This document shows positions 4,638 through 29,614 of a stretch of DNA of 64,000 bases, in pieces (position 1 is the first letter of the stretch; every line of letters begins with the position of its first letter). The notes beneath the pieces are model-generated. The model did not search any database. It worked only from the letters and a program-made list of their open reading frames with translations, and was not told where the DNA came from. Made by a program: the position numbers and the translations under genes. The stretch is taken from assembly GCF_056712565.1 (NCBI RefSeq), contig NZ_CM160072.1. One strand, given 5' to 3'.

Positions 4638-4657
4638 TACTGTATAAATATACAGTA
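4638..4657. promoter_or_regulatory. LexA (SOS) box overlapping sigma70 promoter for tum/dinI-like operon
   Basis: TACTGTATAAATATACAGTA = CTGT-N8-ACAG palindrome; -35 TTGCCA (4625-4630) and -10 TATAAAT inside the box; RBS GGGAGGGAT then ATG 4677. Confidence 0.6.
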
Positions 4658-4676: not shown

Positions 4677-4859
4677 ATGGTTGGCGAACATTTCAGCCGA
4701 ACGCAGCAAAAGTGGGCTTGTGTGCAATTTATTGCCGAGGTATCTCTGATTGCAAACTGCAAGCCATCAGACTTAAAGCTCGCGCTCACTCTCATTGCAG
4801 ACCTAGCAAACAGCGAAAATAACGAAACCGAAGATGATAATTTTTATAAGGCTGATTAG
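4677..4859 (+). CDS. Tum-like N-terminal segment (putative antirepressor part), ends at in-frame TAG
   Basis: 60-aa ORF directly downstream of LexA box; TAG 4857-4859 then ATT then ATG 4863 in the same frame. Confidence 0.4.
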   Translation: MVGEHFSRTQQKWACVQFIAEVSLIANCKPSDLKLALTLIADLANSENNETEDDNFYKAD

Positions 4860-4862
4860 ATT

Positions 4863-5093
4863 ATGAGAATCAATATCACGTTGGATAAAGAGCAAAAATT
4901 AGGGCAACAGATCATTGATGCTTTTCAGAATGAAATAACACATCGAGTACAATGCGTTTTTCCTGCAACAAAAGTTAACGTTAAGAAAGGGTCAATGACT
5001 GGTGTAGAGGCTATCGGATTCGATAAAGAGGCGGACAGAGAAACATTAGGCAGCATATTACAAGAGATTTGGGAAGACGATAGCTGGCGTTAA
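4863..5093 (+). CDS. DinI-family protein (Tum C-terminal domain-like)
   Basis: 76 aa MRINITLDKEQKLGQQIIDAFQNEITHRVQCVFP...LGSILQEIWEDDSWR matches DinI pattern (MRIEVTIAK...ISEILQETWESADDW) from memory. Confidence 0.6.
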   Translation: MRINITLDKEQKLGQQIIDAFQNEITHRVQCVFPATKVNVKKGSMTGVEAIGFDKEADRETLGSILQEIWEDDSWR

Positions 5094-5126
5094 ACATAAT
5101 AACCGTGCTGGCGCAAAAACTAGCTT

Positions 5127-5163
5127 TTTGCGTCGGCGGGGTTGAGTAACGAGCCCACGAGGC
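5127..5163. repeat. copy 1 of ~32-bp imperfect direct repeat (GGCGGGGTTGAnnAACGAGCnCnCGAGGC)
   Basis: cggcggggttgagtaacgagcccacgaggc here vs tggcgggggttgaacaacgagcaccgcgaggc at 5539-5570. Confidence 0.5.
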
Positions 5164-5292
5164 TTAAGTCCTGCCTTTCAAAATTTCTCAATGTGCTATT
5201 GATGACACGCCCATGATTAATGAGGCATGACCTGAGATGGTTTTATAGTGGCGTTTTGACGGCACTGATTAAAATTCATTGAGGGTGATAAT

Positions 5293-5502
5293 ATGCATCG
5301 ACTACCAGGTGAAATACCGCAGCACAAAACTAAAAGCATCAAACTGATGGCCATCGTTCATCGTTTGCAGCAGATAATGGTCAATGAGAATTTGACACCC
5401 GCAGAGCTGGTCGGGTGTGCCGAAATAGTCAGGGATAATTACGGCAAGCTGGATAGCATCAGCAGGTCGAAACAATACGCACCACCACCACGTCGACGAT
5501 AG
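5293..5502 (+). CDS. hypothetical small protein (69 aa)
   Basis: ORF with RBS GAGGGTGATAAT before ATG; flanked by the two direct repeats. Confidence 0.4.
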   Translation: MHRLPGEIPQHKTKSIKLMAIVHRLQQIMVNENLTPAELVGCAEIVRDNYGKLDSISRSKQYAPPPRRR

Positions 5503-5530
5503 CAAACGCCGCCGGTTCTGAAACTCGCTT

Positions 5531-5573
5531 TCAGTACTGGCGGGGGTTGAACAACGAGCACCGCGAGGCGTTA
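5531..5573. repeat. copy 2 of ~32-bp imperfect direct repeat
   Basis: See copy 1; both copies preceded by a short hairpin (CGCAAAAA..TTTTTGCG at 5117-5137; CTGAAA..TTTCAG at 5519-5534). Confidence 0.5.
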
Positions 5574-5576
5574 GCA

Positions 5577-6518
5577 TTAATTTATTTTTAATGAATGGTA
5601 ATCTCGTGAGTTGACCGAAGATTTGAGATAACTGCAATCATTAACCGACAGTATTGCCGCTAATAGGCGACATACCAGTGCCTGCATTTGCAGCAATATA
5701 TCGTTACCATATTGACTGTTGTTAACACTTGAGAAACCAAGCGGTTGACCAAAAAAAATAGCCTCATGAAAATTATCATTGCGGATGCCAGAAATGTTTT
5801 TTTTACCTGACACCCATGTGGGGATTGATAACCCATAAATTTTGCACATCCACTTTAATCGCTTGTAATGATTTGGCGGTTTTTTATCAGGAGCCTTGTC
5901 ATGCTCAGCCCACGACAAAGCAAAGCACCCATCAAGTGCCATGTAAAGATACTGGAATTTTTCAAAAGAAAGGTATTGTGGGTTTTGAGATAAGAATAGT
6001 GCATGCACCACTGCCGCAATTCTTTTGGGGGAGTGCGCATCCTTATGTTTGCCATTTATATAATTAAGAGCCAGTTCTATGACTTCTTTTTCAGAGCATC
6101 CAACGAGAATAAAGTCGGTTAACTTAGTGGGCTTGATAGTGGTTGCATCTAAAAAACCAGCGTCAGTGGTTGTCAATCTTATTCCCTTGAAAAAAGAAAG
6201 GCACCACACAATAAAGTTGAGAGTTTCTAACGAGGATGTATTTTTTAATTTTAGTGTGTGCGTTTTGGGCATACTGAATACTCGGTGACTATAAGGCATT
6301 GTGGATATGCCACCATTAAGGTTATATACATCTTGGTTTCCAGGGTATATCCAACCTTTCACAACGTTTTTATCATTATTAACACGCTCCACTTTCTCAT
6401 TGAGACCAGGTAAAGTAAGCAAAGAAAATTGTTCAGTCTCAATGTTAACTTCTACTGGATAGTATCCAAACTCCGACATAATCTCATTGGGTTGCTGTTC
6501 GTCAACTTCACCTTGCAT
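5577..6518 (-). CDS. hypothetical cargo protein, 313 aa, with RNxxxH motif (possible HEPN-like)
   Basis: AT-rich ORF unlike flanking phage DNA; motif GIRNDNFHEAIFF (R-x4-H) near C-terminus; no other recognisable domain. Confidence 0.6.
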   Translation of the reverse strand: MQGEVDEQQPNEIMSEFGYYPVEVNIETEQFSLLTLPGLNEKVERVNNDKNVVKGWIYPGNQDVYNLNGGISTMPYSHRVFSMPKTHTLKLKNTSSLETLNFIVWCLSFFKGIRLTTTDAGFLDATTIKPTKLTDFILVGCSEKEVIELALNYINGKHKDAHSPKRIAAVVHALFLSQNPQYLSFEKFQYLYMALDGCFALSWAEHDKAPDKKPPNHYKRLKWMCKIYGLSIPTWVSGKKNISGIRNDNFHEAIFFGQPLGFSSVNNSQYGNDILLQMQALVCRLLAAILSVNDCSYLKSSVNSRDYHSLKIN

Positions 6519-6541
6519 ATCTTTCTCCGTTCAAAAATAGG

Positions 6542-6557
6542 CTCGATAATTATCGAG
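6542..6557. promoter_or_regulatory. perfect 16-bp palindrome upstream of the 313-aa gene (candidate operator)
   Basis: CTCGATAATTATCGAG, 24-39 bp upstream of start codon at 6518 on reverse strand. Confidence 0.35.
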
Positions 6558-6755
6558 AGGCTATCATGTTTGGAAAGAACCAATGTCCGTAATTTTTGTA
6601 AATTTAAGGTGATTTATCAATAAATAAGCTGTGCATGCAACAGGTGCATGGTTCTGCATGCGCCGGGGTTACCCGTTTTGTACGTGCGCCGCAAGAGCTG
6701 GCGGGGATCCAGAGTGGTCATGCAACTGCATTAAAACCGCCCCATAAAGCGGGCA

Positions 6756-6774
6756 GGCGTGGCGGGGAAAGCAT
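6756..6774. other. cos: cos cohesive-end sequence, 186 type
   Basis: GGCGTGGCGGGGAAAGCAT equals the 19-nt 186 cohesive end as recalled (P2 GGCGAGGCGGGGAAAGCAC); in GC-rich non-coding stretch between A-side cargo and portal gene. Confidence 0.6.
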
Positions 6775-6993
6775 TGCGCGTCAGCAGTGATGCGTAATAA
6801 TAAAAATTATCCTCTGAGCGCGTCGTGATGGCGCTGTCGTGGTCGCTGCTGGTTCGTTGGTGGTCGGGTGTGTTCGTGCGCGTGAGACGCATCTGATGCG
6901 TGATGGTGGTGTGCATGGAAAAGCCACCAGGAGCAGCGGCTTTACAGGAGTGGCAGGATTCAAACTGCTAATTATGTTTCTACTATGATTAAA

Positions 6994-7998
6994 CTAATTT
7001 ACATGTATGTAGAGTTCACCGTCGCCAGACCAATCGGGACACTCTAAAACAAGCCCAAACTGCTTGAATATTTCATCAATGATTATTGTTATCTCCCGAA
7101 AATCACCAAAACCTGTAATGTGCTGGTCATTAAACTTCCCATAAAGATTCTGAAAAGCAATGCCTAATTCTGATAATTGATATCTTATCTTTGAGTTGGA
7201 TAGTGTAAGGGATAGCTTTGGATCGTATTCTTTAATATTGATGTTTAGAGAATGGACATAACCCATCGCATAAGCATAAGAGTTGATGATTAGCCTGATA
7301 CGTTTTTTTACTTCGAGATACATGTCATTCAGAGAAATATTACCGTACTTATAACCCCAGATGAGTTTTTCAATCTCGTCAGATACTTCATTTACAACAG
7401 TGTCAAGATTCTCTAAAAATAAATCGATAGTTTCTTGAGGGGCAGACCCCGAAGACATGTAATTAGCGAGATATTCAGACCATGCACGCGTGGCTGAGAT
7501 AAGAAGCGCGCTACCATACTCGTTGACTGTAAAGTTTTGGGCTAAGCATGTTAGTAAGTTTTTTTCATGTACGTGCACTAATTCATGGTGAATGCGATGG
7601 ATGACTGCGAGGTATCCTTCTTCTTTCAGTTTTAAGAAGCTACCATCATTGAAAAGCTCAACAAAAAAATCAATCGATAGCACAAGGGTATATTCTTCAC
7701 ATAGCCCATCATTGCCAATTTTTGTTACTAACTGCCCGACGGCTGCGCCCTGTTTACTATTGGTAAATGAACTAGGGGATTTGTGTTGGTAAGAGGATGT
7801 TACCTTTTGAAGAGCTTCACTGAAGTTATAGGAAACAATCACGCATTTTAATTTGGAGATATCAAGATTGAGATTTTTTGTTAAAGCTCGGATAGCTTCT
7901 AGTGTGAAATTACCGATATTATTTGCTTCTTGCTCAGTAGCGAAACCTTCGAGGGTTATTTTAAAATCAGTTTCCAAAATATTAATCTCCGCGCCCAT
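6994..7998 (-). CDS. hypothetical cargo protein, 334 aa, HExxH...E zinc-metallopeptidase-like motif
   Basis: AT-rich ORF between cos and portal gene; HELVH with Glu 22 residues after first His (gluzincin-like spacing). Confidence 0.6.
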   Translation of the reverse strand: MGAEINILETDFKITLEGFATEQEANNIGNFTLEAIRALTKNLNLDISKLKCVIVSYNFSEALQKVTSSYQHKSPSSFTNSKQGAAVGQLVTKIGNDGLCEEYTLVLSIDFFVELFNDGSFLKLKEEGYLAVIHRIHHELVHVHEKNLLTCLAQNFTVNEYGSALLISATRAWSEYLANYMSSGSAPQETIDLFLENLDTVVNEVSDEIEKLIWGYKYGNISLNDMYLEVKKRIRLIINSYAYAMGYVHSLNINIKEYDPKLSLTLSNSKIRYQLSELGIAFQNLYGKFNDQHITGFGDFREITIIIDEIFKQFGLVLECPDWSGDGELYIHVN

Positions 7999-8016
7999 TG
8001 TTTTGATATTCGATGC

Positions 8017-8045
8017 ACTATAGCTTTCGCAGATTGCATCTTCAA
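8017..8045 (-). promoter_or_regulatory. putative sigma70 promoter for the HExxH gene
   Basis: Reverse strand TTGAAG -17 bp- TATAGT about 20 nt upstream of ATG at 7998. Confidence 0.3.
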
Positions 8046-8075
8046 TAATGAGCGCAGAGATTGTGGCGGCCTAAG

Positions 8076-9122
8076 TTATTCTGGGTTGTCGAGGGTGTAC
8101 TCTTTGAATCTGATGACCTCCATGCCGAGCCAGTCATTTACCTCCCTGAACCTGTCCTGTAGCGGCGACAGCTCGTTGCGCACAAATACCTTTGCCACCT
8201 TCTCAACATCACCGAGTGAACCGATATTCTCGGGCTTGCCGCCCATGAGCTGGAACGGTACGCGGTGCGCGTCCATCAGATCGGCGGCACTGGCCTTCTT
8301 GATGTTGAAAAAGTCATCCTTTGTGGCGACCTCGCTCAGTGGCACGATTTTGATGCCGTCCGGTTTTCCGCCGGGAGCGTAGAAAAACAGGTTCTTAAAG
8401 TTGCCGAGCCCTTTTGAGTTGCGCATCGCCTCGCGCAGCGATTCGACGTCGGTCGCGCTCTGCGCCGGGTCAGTCACATACATGATGTAACCCGCGTGCG
8501 CGCCGTTCTGATAATACTTGCGGCGGAACAGCGTCGCGGATTCATTCAGCCAGGCGGAATTTAGCGCGCTGAGATATTCGGGCAGGCCGTAAATCTCCTG
8601 ATTAATGTCGGGCTCCAGCAGGTGAAACACGGTATCAGGCGCGAACTCGTGCGGCTGGGTGAAGTTTTCCACAAACCAGAAAATCGAATCGTCGACTCCG
8701 CGTCGGGTGTATTTGGCTGGCGAGGCCAGCAGTTTGATTAACTGGCCGGTGACGCTGTGGCGCTGCTCAAGAAAGGCGTTACCGAACACCAGATAATCGA
8801 GCGCAAAGCGGCTGAAATCCTGACGGGATAACAACGGGTGCGGAATGTAGGTGCTCGCGAGCACGTTACGCTTAACATAAATTGGCGAGCTGTGATGCAC
8901 GGCAGAGCGCAGGCTCTTTGCCAGCCCTGAGAAGCTGACCGGCGGCTCGTACCATTTGCCGTTACTGATGCACTCGACGTAATCCAGAATGTCGCGCTTA
9001 TCGAGTACCGGCACCGGCTCGCCGAAGGTGAACGCTGTCGTTTTTGGCGGTGCGCTGGCGGTCAGTTGTTGTGGTTTGCTGGCCTTTTGTGCGTTGGCTT
9101 TACGGGATTTTTGTTTACCCAT
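8076..9122 (-). CDS. Q: capsid portal protein (P2 gpQ family)
   Basis: 348 aa, size/position as P2 Q, immediately downstream of terminase on reverse strand. Confidence 0.8.
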   Translation of the reverse strand: MGKQKSRKANAQKASKPQQLTASAPPKTTAFTFGEPVPVLDKRDILDYVECISNGKWYEPPVSFSGLAKSLRSAVHHSSPIYVKRNVLASTYIPHPLLSRQDFSRFALDYLVFGNAFLEQRHSVTGQLIKLLASPAKYTRRGVDDSIFWFVENFTQPHEFAPDTVFHLLEPDINQEIYGLPEYLSALNSAWLNESATLFRRKYYQNGAHAGYIMYVTDPAQSATDVESLREAMRNSKGLGNFKNLFFYAPGGKPDGIKIVPLSEVATKDDFFNIKKASAADLMDAHRVPFQLMGGKPENIGSLGDVEKVAKVFVRNELSPLQDRFREVNDWLGMEVIRFKEYTLDNPE

Positions 9123-9123
9123 T

Positions 9124-10893
9124 TTAGTTGAACTCCAGAATAGATTTAGGCTGCATGCCGCTACCGGCAGAAAGCGGTTCGTTTAACAGGGCGTGCATGG
9201 TCGCCCATGCGATATCGGCGTGGCTGGCTTCCTCGGTGCGGCTGGCCTCATAGGTGGCGCTGCGCCCGCTGCTGGTCATGGTTTTGCGGATGGACATAAA
9301 CGACTGCGTGACGTCGGTTGCTCCGGCGTCGTACTCCAGACAGCCACGGCGAATGGTGTCTTTCGCCTTGAGTACCATTGCGGTTTTCATTTCAGGTGTG
9401 TAACGGATGCCGCGTGCCGCCGGGTAAAATGAGCGCACCAGCTGGAACACGCCGAGACCGAGGCCGGTTGCGTCAATGCCGATGTATTCGACGTTGTATT
9501 TCTCGGTCAGCTTGCGGATGCCCTCTGCCTGTGCTGCAAAATCCATGCCCTTCCACTGGTGGCGCTCCAGCATGCGGAACTTGCCACCAGAGACCACCGG
9601 CGGCGCGAGCACGACGCACCCGGCACTGTCGCCGGTGTGTGACGGGTCGTAGCCAATCCAGACAGGACGAGAGCCGAACGGATGGTCGGCGAACGGGGCA
9701 AAGTCCTCCCATTCCTCCATCACATCGACCATGCAGCGCTGCAGCTCCTCGAACGGGAATACCGACGCTTTATCGTCGACAAACTCGCACATAAACAGGT
9801 TCTTAAAGTCCTCATCACTGTTTTCGCGTTTGAGCTGGTCGAGGTCGAACAGGGTGCAGCCACCCGCAAGGGCGTCCTCAATGGTGACAATCTGCCGCCA
9901 CTGGCCATCGTCGCAGAGCTGGCCACCGGCGAGCGCGCTGTGACTGATGTCGATTTCGATGCGGTCGGCAATCCGGCTGCGCCCCTTGTTGAACAGCTCG
10001 CCAGACCAGAAGGGGTAAGCGCCGTGCGCCAGCGTGGAAGGTGTCGAAAAATAGGTCGAGCGCAGGTGCTTTTGCGAGGCCATGCCCGAGGCGACTTTGC
10101 GCAGTTTCTGAAAATTCGGGATCCAGAATATTTCATCGACATACAGATCGCCGTTATGGCTCTGCGCGGTGTTGGAATTGGTACCGAGAAAAATCAGTTT
10201 TGCGCCGTTGTTACCGATGACAATCGGGTCGCCAGTCAGGTCAACGTCGACCAGTCGCGCAAACTGGATGATGTATTCGCGGAACACGTAAGCCTGCGTT
10301 TTACTGGCTGATAAAAATATCTGGTTATGGCCGGTTTTGAGTACGCGCAGCAGTGCCTCGCGGGAGAAATAGAATGTCGCGCCAATCTGGCGGGATTTGA
10401 GAATGTCACGAATACGGTGCTCCAGTCCTGCGCGGTACCACTGCAACTGGTACTCGAAAGACTGGTCGAAAAATAATTCCTCTAGTTTATCGATAGCCTC
10501 GTCGCTGAAAAAATTCTTTTTCGGCTTTTTGCGCTCCCCTTTGTTGCGGTTGGCGACGTTGGGGTTAAGGTCGGCTTCGTTGCCGGTCTGGCTGTAGCGG
10601 TTGACTCGCGCCAACCGTTCAATCTGCCGTCCGAGCAGGTCAATCTCTTTGAAATCACCCCCTGTCTTTTGCGGCTTGGCGATGAGCTGAATCAGCCTAG
10701 CCTCAAGGCTGCTTTCAACGCGGGAAATCGGCGCGATGCCGTCCCAGCCGTCGCGCTGCTTCCAGCTCTGCACGGTCGGGCGCTTGACCTGCAGCATTTC
10801 GGCAATCTGTGGCACGGAAAAACCCTGCCAGTAAAGCAGCGATGCCTGCCGTCGCGGGTCATGCAACAAGGTTGTATCGGTGGAAATGGTCAT
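9124..10893 (-). CDS. P: terminase large (ATPase) subunit (P2 gpP family)
   Basis: 589 aa, size/order as P2 P. Confidence 0.8.
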   Translation of the reverse strand: MTISTDTTLLHDPRRQASLLYWQGFSVPQIAEMLQVKRPTVQSWKQRDGWDGIAPISRVESSLEARLIQLIAKPQKTGGDFKEIDLLGRQIERLARVNRYSQTGNEADLNPNVANRNKGERKKPKKNFFSDEAIDKLEELFFDQSFEYQLQWYRAGLEHRIRDILKSRQIGATFYFSREALLRVLKTGHNQIFLSASKTQAYVFREYIIQFARLVDVDLTGDPIVIGNNGAKLIFLGTNSNTAQSHNGDLYVDEIFWIPNFQKLRKVASGMASQKHLRSTYFSTPSTLAHGAYPFWSGELFNKGRSRIADRIEIDISHSALAGGQLCDDGQWRQIVTIEDALAGGCTLFDLDQLKRENSDEDFKNLFMCEFVDDKASVFPFEELQRCMVDVMEEWEDFAPFADHPFGSRPVWIGYDPSHTGDSAGCVVLAPPVVSGGKFRMLERHQWKGMDFAAQAEGIRKLTEKYNVEYIGIDATGLGLGVFQLVRSFYPAARGIRYTPEMKTAMVLKAKDTIRRGCLEYDAGATDVTQSFMSIRKTMTSSGRSATYEASRTEEASHADIAWATMHALLNEPLSAGSGMQPKSILEFN

Positions 10894-13061: not shown

Positions 13062-13811
13062 ATGACGAGCCCCGCACAGCGTCACATGATGCGGGTCTCG
13101 GCCTCTCAAGCCGCGCAGCGGGAACAAGCCCCGCTGCGCCATGCAACCGCCTACGAGCAGATGCTGGTAAAGCTGGCCGATGACCGCCGCACGTTGAAAA
13201 CCATCCGTTCAAACGAACTGAAAGCCGCGAAAAAGCGTGAGCTGCTGCCGTTCTATGCGCCGTGGGTCGCCGGTGTGCTGGCTGATGGCCGTGGTGCGCA
13301 GGATGACATTCTGATGACAGTCATGCTGTGGCGTCTCGATGCCGGTGATATCGCTGGCGCGCTGGAAATTGCGCCATACGCGCTGAAGTACGGCCTCACC
13401 TCTGACTATCGCCGCACGACACCTTACATGCTGGTTGAGGAGGTGGCGCTTGCCGCGCTGCGCCTGCGCGATGCCGGTGAGCCTGTCGACCTCGCATTAC
13501 TGCTGACCACCCTTAGCCTGACCGACGGCGCAGACGTTCCCGATATGGTGCGCGCTCGACTGCATAAGGTGACCGGTCTAACCCTGCGCGATGCCGGTCA
13601 GAGCGCCGAAGCACTGGCACAGTTTCAGCGCGCGATGCAGCTCGACCGCAATGCCGGTGTGCGCAAAGAGATTGAGCGACTGGAGCGGGCATTGAAGCCT
13701 AAGCCCGATGCCGCGCCCCGTAAAACGACTAAACCGCGCACGCGCAAACCTGCCACCAAACCGGCGGCAAAGCGCGGGCGTCCACCAAAGGCGGTAAAAA
13801 CCGCCGGTTAA
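13062..13811 (+). CDS. M: terminase small/endonuclease subunit (P2 gpM family)
   Basis: 249 aa, basic Pro/Lys-rich C-terminus. Confidence 0.75.
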   Translation: MTSPAQRHMMRVSASQAAQREQAPLRHATAYEQMLVKLADDRRTLKTIRSNELKAAKKRELLPFYAPWVAGVLADGRGAQDDILMTVMLWRLDAGDIAGALEIAPYALKYGLTSDYRRTTPYMLVEEVALAALRLRDAGEPVDLALLLTTLSLTDGADVPDMVRARLHKVTGLTLRDAGQSAEALAQFQRAMQLDRNAGVRKEIERLERALKPKPDAAPRKTTKPRTRKPATKPAAKRGRPPKAVKTAG

Positions 13812-16853: not shown

Positions 16854-16880
16854 AGGCTGGATAAACACCAGCCTTGATTT
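16854..16880. terminator. hairpin between convergent S and HIT-family gene (bidirectional terminator candidate)
   Basis: GGCTGG-ataaacac-CAGCC followed by T-rich run. Confidence 0.4.
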
Positions 16881-17524
16881 TATAGTTTGAAATCTGCGTA
16901 ATTATCAATAACCTCTAGAACACCGCTGATGTTGTTATCTCTGCGCCAATTCCAATTGCCATGTATCAAATTTGCATTAGAATAAAGATATCTAAGGAAC
17001 TGAGATGGTAAGAGTGGTTTGTTGCATAAAAATTCATCATAACTATTACTCATATACCACACATATCCATTTTTAATGTCAAAACTTAAATTCTCACCTT
17101 CAATTTTCTTAAAGTTAATTTCTTTATTTAGAGCATTTTCAAACTCTTGTGTATAATAAACACAGTGTATATGAGCGTGAGAAATGCACCCTCCTGAACG
17201 ATCTATATTTTCACCTGCTCCGCTTTCAAAGAAAATTAGAGATCTACCAGATTGGTGGATTATAAATTCATTAAGTTCTCGCAGAATCTCCTTGCCATTA
17301 CTCCGGGTATCTCGATCAAGAGCAGCAAAGGAGTTGATATGCCGCTTAGGAATCAGCATCACATGCGAATTATTTAGCGGGCCAATACTAGGTACAATTA
17401 GAAAATCATTTGTTTCTGCAATGATATTTTTCTTGTCATTTACGATTTCATCGTATCCTTTGATAAGGCTAATGCCATTTATTTCATCGCATATTCCACA
17501 GAACGAATTACAAGAATTATTCAC
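16880..17524 (-). CDS. HIT-family (histidine triad) protein with ~80-aa C-terminal extension; cargo gene
   Basis: CNSFCGICDE, NSHVMLIPKRHI and histidine triad HAHIHCV; AT-rich. Confidence 0.7.
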   Translation of the reverse strand: MNNSCNSFCGICDEINGISLIKGYDEIVNDKKNIIAETNDFLIVPSIGPLNNSHVMLIPKRHINSFAALDRDTRSNGKEILRELNEFIIHQSGRSLIFFESGAGENIDRSGGCISHAHIHCVYYTQEFENALNKEINFKKIEGENLSFDIKNGYVWYMSNSYDEFLCNKPLLPSQFLRYLYSNANLIHGNWNWRRDNNISGVLEVIDNYADFKL

Positions 17525-18089
17525 GTTTATTGTCTCCTGGTTTTTTAGGGAGCAATTTTTCAGCCCAAGATGCGAGTCGGCTTAGAACTAAGTCTGAAAA
17601 ATATCCTAATATAAAACAAATCGAGAATGCAATTTTGGTCTTACCATGCCCTTTAATGGAGGATACAAACGTATCCGGAGATAATATCGTATAAGAACAA
17701 AAAGCCACTAAAGCAGCTAAGAACGGAATAAAAATCCTCCAGTAGAACTTATGGGATTCCCAAGGGAAATTATACTGATTGTTTTTCCCTCTAGCAGTTA
17801 CTCTATAAAACCATTTTGCATTATACACCCACCCTCCAAAAAAACCACCAAGAATAGAAAACAAAGATATTTTATTATTATATGACAGCTCAAAAACAAA
17901 TTGAAAAAGAAAGGCGAGAATGCAACCTATTACAAAAAGAACTATTAAATAAGCAAATTCGAATTTTATTTGTTCACAATCGTTATTAAAATAAGGCACA
18001 ACCTCATCATCGCCTAAGGTTTTTTTTCTTTCAGTCATTTGCCAAACACCTTCATTTTTTACTGTGAGCCAGGGTAATTGCATATTCAA
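17517..18089 (-). CDS. small integral membrane protein (about 4 TM helices); cargo gene, overlaps HIT gene by 8 nt
   Basis: Hydrophobic stretches YLIVLFVIGCILAFLFQFVF, ISLFSILGGFFGGWVY, IFIPFLAALVAFCSYTIL, IAFSICFILGYFSDLVL; AT-rich. Confidence 0.65.
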   Translation of the reverse strand: MNMQLPWLTVKNEGVWQMTERKKTLGDDEVVPYFNNDCEQIKFEFAYLIVLFVIGCILAFLFQFVFELSYNNKISLFSILGGFFGGWVYNAKWFYRVTARGKNNQYNFPWESHKFYWRIFIPFLAALVAFCSYTILSPDTFVSSIKGHGKTKIAFSICFILGYFSDLVLSRLASWAEKLLPKKPGDNKRE

Positions 18090-20109: not shown

Positions 20110-20710
20110 CCGGCTATTACCCGTTGGCTCGTCGCCGCTGGAGGTCGCCGCCGCCGCTGCGTTCTCTGAGATTCAGCGCGTGCCGGTACCGCTGCGCACC
20201 CTGTGGAACTGGCGCACCTGCCCGGTAAAGCTGCTGCCGTATCTGGCGTGGGCGCTGTCGGTCGACAGGTGGGATGAGAAATGGCCGGAGGCGACAAAGC
20301 GCAGCGTCTGCGCGTCCTCGTTTTTCGTCCATCAGCACAAAGGCACCATCAGCGCATTGCGTCGGGTCGTCGAGCCGCTCGGCTTTCTGATTGAGGTGCG
20401 CGAGTGGTGGCAACTCGACGAGGAGCCAGGCACATTCCGCCTCGTTGTTGGCGTCCTCGACAGCGGCATCACTGACGAAATGTATCAGGAGCTTGAGCGC
20501 CTGATTGAAGACGCCAAACCGGCAAGTCGCCACCTGACGGGGCTGGCTATCAGCCTGAGTGCAACCGGCGAGCTGTATGTCGGCGCGGGATGCTACGCCG
20601 GCGACGCGCTGACCGTTTACCCCTACACCCCCGAGGAAATTGTCGTCGGCGGTGAATATTACCCGGCCTCGGCCATCCATTTGATTGATAACCTGAGAGT
20701 GAACGCATGA
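20102..20710 (+). CDS. I: tail/baseplate protein I (P2 gpI family)
   Basis: 202 aa, position after J. Confidence 0.7.
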   Translation: MNDRLLPVGSSPLEVAAAAAFSEIQRVPVPLRTLWNWRTCPVKLLPYLAWALSVDRWDEKWPEATKRSVCASSFFVHQHKGTISALRRVVEPLGFLIEVREWWQLDEEPGTFRLVVGVLDSGITDEMYQELERLIEDAKPASRHLTGLAISLSATGELYVGAGCYAGDALTVYPYTPEEIVVGGEYYPASAIHLIDNLRVNA

Positions 20711-21732
20711 CCGCAAAATATTTTGCCATTCTGACCAATCAGGGCGCGGCGCGGCTGGCGAACGCGGCGACACTCGGTACCAAGCTCAACCTGACGCAGA
20801 TGGCGGTCGGTGATGCGAATGGTACGCTGCCGACCCCTGACCCGACGCAGACGAAGCTCATTAACCAGAAGCGCATCGCGCCGCTGAACCTGCTGACCGT
20901 TGACCCGGCCAATACCAGCCAGATTATCGCGGAACAGATTATTCCCGAGAATGAGGGCGGTTTCTGGATCCGTGAGATTGGTCTCTATGATGATGCCGGT
21001 GTGCTTATTGCCGTGGCGAACTGCCCGGAAACCTACAAACCACAACTGCAGGAGGGAAGCGGCCGCACGCAGACCATTCGCATGATTCTGATTGTGTCGA
21101 GCACGTCGGCTATTACTCTGAAAATCGACCCGTCGGTCGTGCTGGCAACGCGCCAGTATGTCGACGATAAGGTTATTGAGGTGAAAGCCTATGCCGATAA
21201 TCTGCTGGCCGCACACCTCGCCGCCGCGAATCCTCATCCGCAGTACCTGCAAGTCGCCGACATAGCGAAATATACGCCAGTAGGTGTGCCACTTCCTTTC
21301 CCGTCAGCAACGCCGCCGACAGGCTGGCTGAAATGCAACGGCGCGGCATTTGATAAGGCGAAATATCCGGGGCTGGCTGCAGTTTTTCCGTCTGGTTATT
21401 TGCCTGATTTACGCGGTGAGTTTATTCGCTGCTGGGATGATGGGCGCGGTATTGATTCAGGCCGCATGTTACTGAGCGCGCAGACGGGAATGCTGGAAAG
21501 GCACCGACACTTCATCGTCGCGAATACTGCATATGAGGAAACCGATGAATGGGATATTGGTGTCATTTATCGTTCTACATACGTGCAGGGACGCGGGCTT
21601 GATGCATCTTCGACTGGAGGTAGCTTGATTCCTACCCCGACCCTTCACTCTAAAGGTCGTGTAGGTAATACCGGCGGAGCTGAAACACGACCGCGTAACA
21701 TCGCATTTAATTACATCGTGAGGGCGGCATAA
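20707..21732 (+). CDS. H: tail fibre protein (P2 gpH-like, short form)
   Basis: 341 aa; C-terminal receptor-binding part shares long identical stretches with the silent fibre segment at 48185-48679. Confidence 0.75.
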   Translation: MTAKYFAILTNQGAARLANAATLGTKLNLTQMAVGDANGTLPTPDPTQTKLINQKRIAPLNLLTVDPANTSQIIAEQIIPENEGGFWIREIGLYDDAGVLIAVANCPETYKPQLQEGSGRTQTIRMILIVSSTSAITLKIDPSVVLATRQYVDDKVIEVKAYADNLLAAHLAAANPHPQYLQVADIAKYTPVGVPLPFPSATPPTGWLKCNGAAFDKAKYPGLAAVFPSGYLPDLRGEFIRCWDDGRGIDSGRMLLSAQTGMLERHRHFIVANTAYEETDEWDIGVIYRSTYVQGRGLDASSTGGSLIPTPTLHSKGRVGNTGGAETRPRNIAFNYIVRAA

Positions 21733-22328
21733 TGGCGAAAGCAACATTGAATAAAATCGGTATTGCCACAAAAGCCGGTGATATGACTGTTTATAACTAC
21801 GACGGGGAAACGCGCGAGTTTCTGTCGACTTCCACCGAGTTTCTAGCGGTGGGCGTGGGGATTCCAGCCAACTCGTGTACTGATGCGCCGGTCGATGAGA
21901 AAGAAGGTTTTGCCATTTGCCGCACGGCCAGCCTTGATGGGTGGGATTATGTTGTCGACCACCGGGGCGAGACCGTGTATGACACCGAAACCGGTCAGCC
22001 TGTCGAGATTACCGGGCTTGGTGATTATCCTGATAATGTGACCACCATCGAACCGATGACGCCTTACGACCGCTGGAACGGTAGCGAATGGATTATGGAT
22101 GCGGATGCACAGAAAGGCGGTCAGGTTGCGACAGCAGAACAGAATAAAGCCTCATTGCTGGCCGAAGCGCAAAGCACAATCAGCCTGTGGCAGACTGAGC
22201 TGCAGCTCGACATCATCAGCGACGATGACAAAGCCAACCTGATTGCATGGATGAAATACATTCAGGCACTGAACGCGGTCGACACCTCAACAGCACCGGA
22301 TATCGAGTGGCCGGTAAAACCGGAATAA
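21732..22328 (+). CDS. G: tail fibre assembly protein (P2 gpG family)
   Basis: 198 aa; N-terminus ATKAGDMTVYNYDGETRE shared with the ORF at 48679-49281. Confidence 0.75.
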   Translation: MAKATLNKIGIATKAGDMTVYNYDGETREFLSTSTEFLAVGVGIPANSCTDAPVDEKEGFAICRTASLDGWDYVVDHRGETVYDTETGQPVEITGLGDYPDNVTTIEPMTPYDRWNGSEWIMDADAQKGGQVATAEQNKASLLAEAQSTISLWQTELQLDIISDDDKANLIAWMKYIQALNAVDTSTAPDIEWPVKPE

Positions 22329-28900: not shown

Positions 28901-29119
28901 ATGATGCACTGCCCGTTATGCCAAAACGCCGCACATGCTCGTACTAGCCGGTACCTTAGCACCGAAACGAAAGAACGTTATCACCAATGCCAGAACATAA
29001 ATTGCGGATGTACATTTATCACTTTTGAGACGCTATCAAGATTCATTGTGAAACCGGGCACTGTTGATCCTGCTCCGCCACATCCCATCAGAAACCAACA
29101 ACAGCAACTTTGGCTTTGA
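28901..29119 (+). CDS. ogr: late transcription activator, zinc finger (Ogr / 186 B family)
   Basis: 72 aa with CPLCQ...CQNINCGC zinc finger, last phage gene before host DNA. Confidence 0.8.
   Translation: MMHCPLCQNAAHARTSRYLSTETKERYHQCQNINCGCTFITFETLSRFIVKPGTVDPAPPHPIRNQQQQLWL

Positions 29120-29263: not shown

Positions 29264-29614
<351 letters not shown>

What the first reader, a model, noticed from the sequence alone, without database searches (positions are those of the whole stretch)
6519..6993. 186-type cos site inside a GC-rich non-coding island between the two cargo genes
The 475-bp spacer is GC-rich and ORF-poor, unlike its AT-rich neighbours, and contains GGCGTGGCGGGGAAAGCAT (6756-6774), which I recall as the 186 cohesive end. 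With the complete head, tail and lysis modules this suggests a packaging-competent prophage, and places the two cargo genes at opposite ends of virion DNA. It also explains the structured-looking spacer without invoking an ncRNA.
Basis: partly seen in the sequence, partly recalled or inferred. Interest (0 to 1): 0.4.

Follow-up and report, generated by a model that had tools for sequence, protein, structure and literature searches.

The report
Phage 186-type cos site in prophage

Summary
Window 6756-6774 reads GGCGTGGCGGGGAAAGCAT. It occurs once in the window and is identical to nt 1-19 of the phage 186 and PSP3 records, which are annotated as the cohesive end.

About 130 bp to its left and 170 bp to its right (6627-6945) align with the circularised 186/PSP3 ends at 80-87% identity. 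This block includes the core shared by P2, P4 and 186, a conserved TGCAT cluster and the portal-operon terminator.

The "GC-rich island" is only this block (57.7% GC, like the phage backbone). It lies between two low-GC single-gene inserts (37-38% GC); the outer parts of the spacer are AT-rich.

Nothing supports an ncRNA: Rfam gives no hit and folding is unremarkable. Nothing supports a small protein either: the two annotated ORFs over cos are intact in only 2 of 17 relatives.

The prophage is about 31.4 kb, collinear with PSP3, with every packaging, head, tail, lysis and SOS-induction gene full length. Packaging competence is therefore plausible but unproven.

Rousset et al. 2022 described this cos-adjacent hotspot and list this exact gene set. 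Verdict: interpretation supported, already known, low interest.

Side note: the two cargo proteins are uncharacterised. One is predicted to be a gluzincin-like metallopeptidase; the other carries an invariant HEPN-like motif.

The parts
6756..6774 (+). 19-nt cohesive-end sequence (the nicking-site interval, analogous to cosN). The top strand is expected to be nicked 5' of 6756 and the bottom strand opposite 6774/6775, giving 5' overhangs.
   Evidence: Identical to nt 1-19 of 186 (U32222.1) and PSP3 (AY135486.1), annotated 'cos; cohesive end; top strand cut at 5' end, bottom strand cut at 3' end'. Unique in the window.
6719..6781 (+). Near-invariant cos core shared by P2-, 186- and P4-type elements: TGCAACTGCATTAAAACCGCCCC..AAGCGGGC, then the 19-mer, then TGCGCG.
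   Evidence: Five-way alignment with 186, PSP3, P2 and P4. Column conservation across 112 unique IMG/VR flanks. The literature gives a ~55-bp core shared by P2 and P4 (PMC9594776, citing Ziermann & Calendar 1990).
6627..6755 (+). Left cos flank, equivalent to the right end of virion DNA. It holds a cluster of TGCAT motifs at 6632, 6635(-), 6645, 6655, 6720(-) and 6727. Inferred to be a terminase recognition region.
   Evidence: 87% identity to the 186 right end and 80% to PSP3. Six TGCAT in 134 nt is the highest density in the 64-kb window. The motifs are conserved in 186, PSP3, P2 and P4. Protein binding is inferred, not tested.
6775..6917 (+). Right cos flank, equivalent to the left end of virion DNA.
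   Evidence: 82% identity to the 186 left end and 86% to PSP3 over 6775-6930.
6918..6944 (-). Rho-independent terminator homologous to 186 tW / P2 tQ (portal-terminase operon terminator). Here it lies downstream of cargo gene 2.
   Evidence: Aligns with 186 nt 164-187, annotated 'terminator tW'. Terminator-like hit at 6937-6923 on the minus strand.
6519..6626 (-). AT-rich leader and promoter region belonging to the cargo-1 cassette, not to cos. It contains sigma-70-like hits and a perfect 16-bp palindrome at 6542-6557.
   Evidence: No homology to 186 or PSP3 (32-42% aligned identity). It travels with cargo 1 in E. coli GD33. Promoter-like sites at 6620-6592 and 6576-6549. Palindrome I3.
6946..6993 (-). 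AT-rich 3' tail of the cargo-2 cassette.
   Evidence: 33.3% GC. Homology to 186 and PSP3 ends at about 6945.
5577..6518 (-). Cargo gene 1 (313 aa, WP_001622299), function unknown. It has an invariant R246-N-x3-H251-E motif (HEPN-like).
   Evidence: PHROG 5937, unknown function. No Pfam, NCBIfam, PADLOC or PDB match. Invariant columns. AF2 pLDDT 82 with no fold match.
6994..7998 (-). Cargo gene 2 (334 aa, WP_001622301), a predicted gluzincin-like zinc metallopeptidase. It is inserted between the portal stop codon and the portal-operon terminator.
8076..9122 (-). Portal gene (P2 Q / 186 W homologue).
   Evidence: 94% identity and 100% coverage to PSP3 gp1. PGAP 'phage portal protein'.
9124..10893 (-). 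Terminase large (ATPase) subunit, P2 P homologue. The enzyme expected to act at cos.
   Evidence: 97% identity and 100% coverage to PSP3 gp3.
13062..13811 (+). Terminase small / endonuclease subunit, P2 M homologue.
   Evidence: 91% identity and 100% coverage to PSP3 gp6. PGAP 'terminase endonuclease subunit'.

Best explanation
Window 6627-6945 is the cos (cohesive-end) packaging site of an Eganvirus (186/PSP3-like, family Peduoviridae) prophage of about 31.4 kb.

Expected mechanism, from established P2/186 biology. After induction and replication, the phage terminase recognises the conserved cos block on replicated phage DNA. The terminase consists of the P-like ATPase subunit (9124-10893) and the M-like subunit (13062-13811). 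It nicks the top strand 5' of 6756 and the bottom strand opposite 6774/6775. This produces linear virion DNA with 19-nt 5' overhangs (GGCGTGGCGGGGAAAGCAT), which is threaded through the portal encoded next door.

The block looks like a GC-rich island because it is a piece of phage backbone. It is preserved between two independently acquired low-GC single-gene cassettes that occupy the known cos-adjacent variable hotspot of P2-like phages.

What is shown: sequence identity, flank homology, position, and intact cognate genes.

What is inferred: that cleavage actually occurs in this prophage, and that the TGCAT cluster left of the nick sites is the terminase recognition element.
For: The 19-mer is identical to the annotated cohesive ends of 186 and PSP3 and is unique in the window.

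Both flanks are 80-87% identical to the joined 186/PSP3 termini, with sharp homology limits at about 6627 and 6945.

The genome records of 186, PSP3, SEN1 and EtG all begin exactly at the base aligned with 6756.

The core 6719-6781 is near-invariant across 112 unique IMG/VR contigs and in P2 and P4.

The gene order is A - tumA - dinI-like - cargo - cos - cargo - portal - terminase, collinear with PSP3. All 26 morphogenesis and lysis genes other than the tail-fibre cassette are covered at 94% or more, and the prophage is 31,374 bp.

A perfect LexA box lies upstream of tumA.

GC of the block matches the backbone.

Rousset et al. 2022 (PMC9122126) describe this cos-adjacent hotspot between gpA and gpQ. 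Their supplementary table lists exactly WP_001622301 + WP_001622299 + WP_001622297 + DinI....
Against: There is no direct evidence that this prophage is induced or packaged. The one matching 'phage' record is a prophage region with host flanks.

The tail-fibre H/G cassette is divergent and short: only 24% of PSP3 H aligns. The gene that PSP3 and 186 carry between portal and terminase (PSP3 gp2, 'similar to 186 W') is absent. P2 also lacks that gene, and fibre cassettes are commonly swapped.

The flanks differ from 186 by 13-18%, so terminase-cos matching is assumed rather than tested.
Confidence: 0.9

Rival explanations
1. Relic cos. The sequence descends from a cos site, but the prophage is defective (not inducible or not assembling infectious particles), so the site is never cut.
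For: There are no virion-derived data. ON470592 is a prophage region with about 11 kb of host DNA. The tail-fibre genes are divergent and short, and the PSP3 gp2-type gene is missing.
Against: Every other PSP3 gene for packaging, head, tail, lysis, regulation and replication has a full-length counterpart at 67-100% identity, and no gene carries a pseudogene flag in PGAP. The LexA box and tumA are intact. The near-identical prophage occurs in 16 complete E. coli genomes from different hosts and countries.
Confidence: 0.08
2. The conserved GC-rich block encodes a structured non-coding RNA.
For: It is conserved, intergenic and GC-rich. The plus-strand MFE is -130.8 kcal/mol.
Against: No Rfam match at E up to 1. 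Folding energy is not better than dinucleotide shuffles, with z = -1.28 (+) and -0.08 (-). Conservation peaks on the nick-site core rather than on paired arms. The block is split in two in virion DNA.
Confidence: 0.01
3. The block encodes a small protein, as public annotations suggest (6635-6790 +, PGAP WP_164966458; 6731-6916 -, URE76625).
For: The ORFs exist and are annotated in RefSeq and GenBank records.
Against: Each ORF is intact in only 2 of 17 homologues with at least 70% identity (the window and a 98% copy). Variable sites show no third-codon-position excess: 27/23/19 and 25/30/31. There is no Pfam hit. The curated 186, PSP3 and P2 records have no CDS here.
Confidence: 0.01

Closest known systems
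cos site of coliphage 186 (U32222.1 / NC_001317, Eganvirus ev186)
   Same: The 19-nt cohesive end is identical. The left flank is 87% and the right flank 82% identical. The tW terminator is homologous, and the orientation relative to the portal-terminase operon is the same.
   Different: In 186 the portal stop codon lies 196 nt from the cos start. Here it lies 1320 nt away, because a 1.1-kb cassette (cargo 2) sits between the portal stop and the terminator. On the other side 186 carries tum-orf97, while here there are tumA, a dinI-like gene, a small ORF and cargo 1.
cos site of Salmonella phage PSP3 (AY135486.1)
   Same: The 19-mer is identical (annotated 'identical to 186 cos'). The flanks are 80-86% identical. 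The genome is collinear, including the split tumA/tumB module.
   Different: PSP3 has gp37/gp38 next to cos and no gene between cos and the portal. It has the extra gp2 gene between portal and terminase, which is absent here.
cos sites of P2 (AF063097) and satellite P4 (NC_001609)
   Same: They share the same about 60-bp core and the TGCAT motifs. The 19-mer differs at 2 positions (A for T, C for T). The position between gene A/old-tin and Q is the same in P2.
   Different: Outside the core the flanks are only about 50% identical. P4 has no structural genes of its own.
P2-like cos-proximal defence hotspot (Rousset et al. 2022, PMC9122126)
   Same: The locus lies between gpA and gpQ next to cos, with variable low-GC cargo. 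This exact gene set is listed in their supplementary table.
   Different: The two cargo genes here were listed as 'hypothetical', and no defence activity for them turned up in the passages and tables searched. Cargo on the portal side of cos is the minority layout: 16 of 100 IMG/VR contigs.
Lambda cos (cosN/cosB/cosQ)
   Same: It works in the same general way. Terminase makes staggered nicks at a specific site, giving 5' cohesive ends next to the terminase and portal genes.
   Different: There is no sequence similarity. The overhang is 12 nt rather than 19 nt. From background knowledge, P2-type phages package from monomeric circles rather than concatemers. The sub-site architecture is not defined for this family.

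Membership tests
P2/186-type (Peduoviridae) cos site | 19-nt cohesive-end sequence GGCG(A/T)GGCGGGGAAAGCA(C/T) | tested here: met
   Exact 186/PSP3 variant at 6756-6774.
P2/186-type (Peduoviridae) cos site | Conserved core of about 55-60 bp around the 19-mer, shared with P2, P4 and 186 | tested here: met
   6719-6781 is near-invariant in the five-way alignment and across 112 IMG/VR flanks.
P2/186-type (Peduoviridae) cos site | Location between the replication gene A region and the 3' end of the portal-terminase operon, in the same orientation | tested here: met
   Collinear with PSP3 and 186, with the tW-like terminator retained.
P2/186-type (Peduoviridae) cos site | Cognate terminase subunits (P-like and M-like) and portal encoded intact in the same element | tested here: met
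   100% coverage at 91-97% identity to PSP3 gp1, gp3 and gp6.
P2/186-type (Peduoviridae) cos site | Terminase cleavage at the site, giving virion DNA with 19-nt 5' overhangs | not testable with these tools
   Needs induced virion DNA. The only matching 'phage' record is a prophage region.
cos-adjacent variable/defence hotspot of P2-like phages (Rousset 2022) | Variable gene content between gpA and gpQ next to cos in otherwise related prophages | tested here: met
   Cargo 1 and cargo 2 occur independently in E. coli GD33 and 1008S13. A-to-cos distances are 468-3597 nt and cos-to-portal distances 181-3730 nt. The locus is listed in their table.
cos-adjacent variable/defence hotspot of P2-like phages (Rousset 2022) | Cargo confers anti-phage defence | not testable with these tools
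   No PADLOC match for either protein. Only motif and fold predictions are available.
Structured ncRNA | Match to a known family or significantly stable, covarying structure | tested here: not met
   Rfam gives 0 hits. Folding z-scores are -1.28 and -0.08.
Small protein-coding gene | ORF conserved in relatives with a coding substitution pattern | tested here: not met
   Intact in 2 of 17 relatives, with no third-position bias.

The most novel reading that the evidence does not exclude
The cos site itself offers nothing new. The most novel reading left open concerns its neighbours. The two orphan genes flanking cos could be uncharacterised single-gene anti-phage (abortive-infection-type) systems carried at the two virion DNA ends. 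Cargo 2 is a predicted gluzincin-like metallopeptidase, which recalls the logic of the Lit protease of prophage e14. Cargo 1 is a 313-aa protein with an invariant HEPN-like RNxxxH motif. A lesser possibility is that the conserved TGCAT cluster is the still undefined terminase recognition element of the P2 family.
Probability: 0.35. Interest if true: 0.4.

Novelty: already known. Interest (0 to 1): 0.1.

Why it matters
It matters little beyond annotation. It fixes the virion ends and map orientation of this prophage. It explains the compositional island without any new element.

It also shows that two database 'hypothetical proteins' drawn across cos are artefacts, and that a GenBank 'phage' record is really a prophage region with host DNA.

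The practical value lies next door. The site marks a well-known defence-gene hotspot, so the two orphan cargo genes are reasonable candidates for defence screening.

Tried and rejected
ncRNA: the Rfam scan of 5000-8500 at E up to 1 gave nothing. RNA folding of both strands of 6627-6945 was no better than shuffles.

Small ORFs over cos: rejected on conservation and codon-position pattern.

P4-like satellite origin: rejected, because the whole region is collinear with PSP3 and has its own structural genes.

Cos splitting a two-gene system: rejected, because cargo 1 and cargo 2 occur separately in other E. coli prophages.

Evidence of virions: the ON470592 'phage' record turned out to contain smpB-recN-grpE-ffh-rplS host genes. 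A literature search for its name returned only unrelated papers.

Literature: I could not retrieve Ziermann & Calendar 1990 or Christie & Calendar 2016. Statements on the minimal cos region therefore rest on secondary citations (PMC9594776, PMC9122126). Two paper searches failed on term length.

Full report
OBSERVATION

The sequence GGCGTGGCGGGGAAAGCAT is at window 6756-6774 on the + strand. It is the only hit in the 64-kb window even when three mismatches are allowed.

The composition claim needs refining. The spacer as a whole is 49.1% GC. Only its central block 6627-6945 is GC-rich (57.7%). The two outer pieces are AT-rich: 6519-6626 is 30.6% and 6946-6993 is 33.3%. The neighbouring genes are 38.5% and 37.5% GC, and the portal and terminase genes are 55.7% and 56.9%. 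The 'island' therefore has backbone composition and lies between low-GC inserts.

IS IT THE 186 COS?

Yes. The first 19 nt of the phage 186 record U32222.1, annotated 'cos; cohesive end; top strand cut at 5' end and bottom strand cut at 3' end', are the same 19 letters. PSP3 carries the same sequence, annotated 'identical to 186 cos'. P2 and P4 differ at two positions.

I joined the right and left ends of 186, PSP3 and P2 and aligned them with the window.
- Window 6627-6755 is 87% identical to the 186 right end and 80% to PSP3.
- Window 6775-6930 is 82% identical to the 186 left end and 86% to PSP3.
- Homology collapses to 29-42% outside about 6627 and 6945.

In the blastn search of the phage collection, the records of 186, PSP3, SEN1 and EtG all begin at the base aligned with window 6756. 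The block also contains the homologue of the 186 tW / P2 tQ terminator at about 6918-6944 on the minus strand.

ANATOMY AND CONSERVATION

A scan of IMG/VR for GGCGWGGCGGGGAAAGCAY returned at least 120 contigs: 87 of P2 type, 29 of 186 type and 4 hybrids. Across 112 unique flanks the near-invariant stretch is window 6719-6781. It reads TGCAACTGCATTAAAACCGCCCC..AAGCGGGC, then the 19-mer, then TGCGCG. This matches the conserved core shared by P2 and P4 that the literature gives as about 55 bp (PMC9594776, citing Ziermann & Calendar 1990; PMC9122126).

Left of it lies a cluster of TGCAT motifs, six in 134 nt. This is the densest such cluster in the whole window, and it is conserved in 186, PSP3, P2 and P4. 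I infer that this is where terminase recognises the site. That inference is not tested.

RIVALS

- ncRNA: Rfam gave no hit at E up to 1. Folding energies are not better than shuffles, with z = -1.28 and -0.08.
- Small proteins: PGAP annotates a 51-aa ORF at 6635-6790 (+), and the ON470592 record annotates a 61-aa ORF at 6731-6916 (-), both across cos. Each is intact in only 2 of 17 homologues with at least 70% identity. Variable sites show no third-position excess. I take both to be annotation artefacts.
- Satellite: a P4-type origin is excluded by collinearity with PSP3.

CONTEXT AND COMPETENCE

The window is 99.99% identical to E. coli MS15052 over 28.1 kb. There PGAP annotates, in order: int, CI, cII, fil, replication endonuclease, a tumA-like gene, a DinI-like gene, cargo 1, cargo 2, portal, terminase ATPase, scaffold, capsid, terminase endonuclease subunit, head completion, lysis genes, and tail genes as far as D, where the fetched stretch ends. 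None carries a pseudogene flag.

The late activator is not in that table. It was found downstream in the window by tblastn (Pag/Ogr, 28901-29116).

tblastn of all 41 PSP3 proteins shows full-length counterparts (at least 94% coverage, 67-100% identity) for every packaging, head, lysis, tail, regulatory and replication gene. The exceptions are:
- the tail-fibre H/G cassette, which is swapped and shorter;
- PSP3 gp2, the extra gene between portal and terminase, which P2 also lacks;
- the accessory genes gp35 and gp38.

A 13-nt direct repeat, AGTTAAGACGCTC, lies beside int and again at window 29266-29278, overlapping the rplS stop. It bounds a 31,374-bp element, a size close to 186 (30.6 kb) and P2 (33.6 kb). 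A perfect LexA box, CTGTATAAATATACAG (4640-4655), precedes tumA.

Packaging competence is therefore plausible but not shown. The only matching 'phage' record, ON470592, is 44,992 bp and carries smpB-recN-grpE-ffh-rplS. It is a prophage region, not virion DNA.

WHY THE CARGO SITS THERE

Rousset et al. 2022 (PMC9122126) described the cos-proximal region between gpA and gpQ of P2-like phages as a hotspot of accessory and defence genes. They counted 1,650 arrangements in E. coli. Their supplementary table lists exactly WP_001622301 + WP_001622299 + WP_001622297 + DinI + ....

In my sample of 100 IMG/VR contigs with this cos and a portal gene, 84 have the canonical 181-210 nt from cos to the portal stop. 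The other 16 have 396-3730 nt. The window has 1320 nt, so cargo on the portal side is a minority layout but not a rare one.

Cargo 2 is inserted between the portal stop codon and the operon terminator. The two cargo genes are independent cassettes. E. coli 1008S13 has cargo 2 without cargo 1, with homology starting at 6631. E. coli GD33 has cargo 1 without cargo 2, with homology ending at 6880. The conserved cos block thus acts as the fixed anchor between exchangeable modules.

THE CARGO PROTEINS (SIDE OBSERVATION)

Neither protein matches Pfam, NCBIfam, PADLOC or PDB sequences. Both belong to PHROGs of unknown function.

Cargo 1 has about 400 homologues across Gammaproteobacteria and an invariant R246-N-x3-H251-E motif that resembles the HEPN Rx4-6H signature. 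One homologue is named 'Apea-like HEPN' by UniRef. However, the model is poor exactly at the motif and no fold match was found. This remains a lead only.

VERDICT

The feature is the standard cos site of a 186/PSP3-like prophage in a published hotspot. Novelty: already known. Interest: low.

Noticed in passing
[not shown]
   Followed up: partly
window 5577-6518 (-): Cargo gene 1 (313 aa, WP_001622299) belongs to a family of about 400 proteins across Gammaproteobacteria. It has an invariant RNxxxHE (HEPN-like) motif and no Pfam, PADLOC or PDB match. The AF2 model is weak at the motif.
   Followed up: partly
window 6542-6557: A perfect 16-bp palindrome, CTCGATAATTATCGAG, lies in the 5' leader of cargo gene 1, between the promoter-like sites and the start codon. 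It could be an operator or an RNA hairpin.
   Followed up: no
window 4640-4655: A perfect LexA box, CTGTATAAATATACAG, lies about 20 nt upstream of the tumA-like gene (4677-4859), followed by a DinI-like gene (4863-5093). This is the PSP3-type split Tum SOS-induction module.
   Followed up: partly
window ~16880-17999 (-): A second cargo spot lies inside the tail-gene cluster. A HIT-family protein and a hypothetical protein sit on the opposite strand between the S-like and V-like genes, the position of orf30 in P2.
   Followed up: no
window 29266-29278 and L008 12506-12518: A 13-nt direct repeat, AGTTAAGACGCTC, is the likely att core. It overlaps the 3' end of rplS. The prophage sits between yfiB and rplS and is 31,374 bp long.
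   Followed up: partly
window 6635-6790 (+) and 6731-6916 (-): Public records annotate 'hypothetical proteins' across the cos site (PGAP WP_164966458, URE76625, WP_000557532). They are intact in only 2 of 17 relatives and look spurious.
   Followed up: yes
L134 (ON470592.1 1-11400): The GenBank 'Escherichia phage vB_EcoM-613R3, partial genome' record contains about 11 kb of host chromosome (smpB, recN, grpE, ffh, rpsP, rimM, trmD, rplS). It is a prophage region, not a virion genome.
   Followed up: yes
window 9122-9124 and 20707-22325: Unlike 186 and PSP3, there is no extra gene between portal and terminase, which is the P2-like layout. The tail-fibre H/G cassette is replaced by a shorter, divergent one: only the first 159 aa of PSP3 H align.
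   Followed up: partly
IMG/VR loci L011-L130: Of 120 contigs with a P2-family cohesive end, 4 carry a hybrid 19-mer, GGCGTGGCGGGGAAAGCAC (186-type at position 5, P2-type at position 19). Cargo between cos and the portal is present in 16 of 100 contigs.
   Followed up: partly
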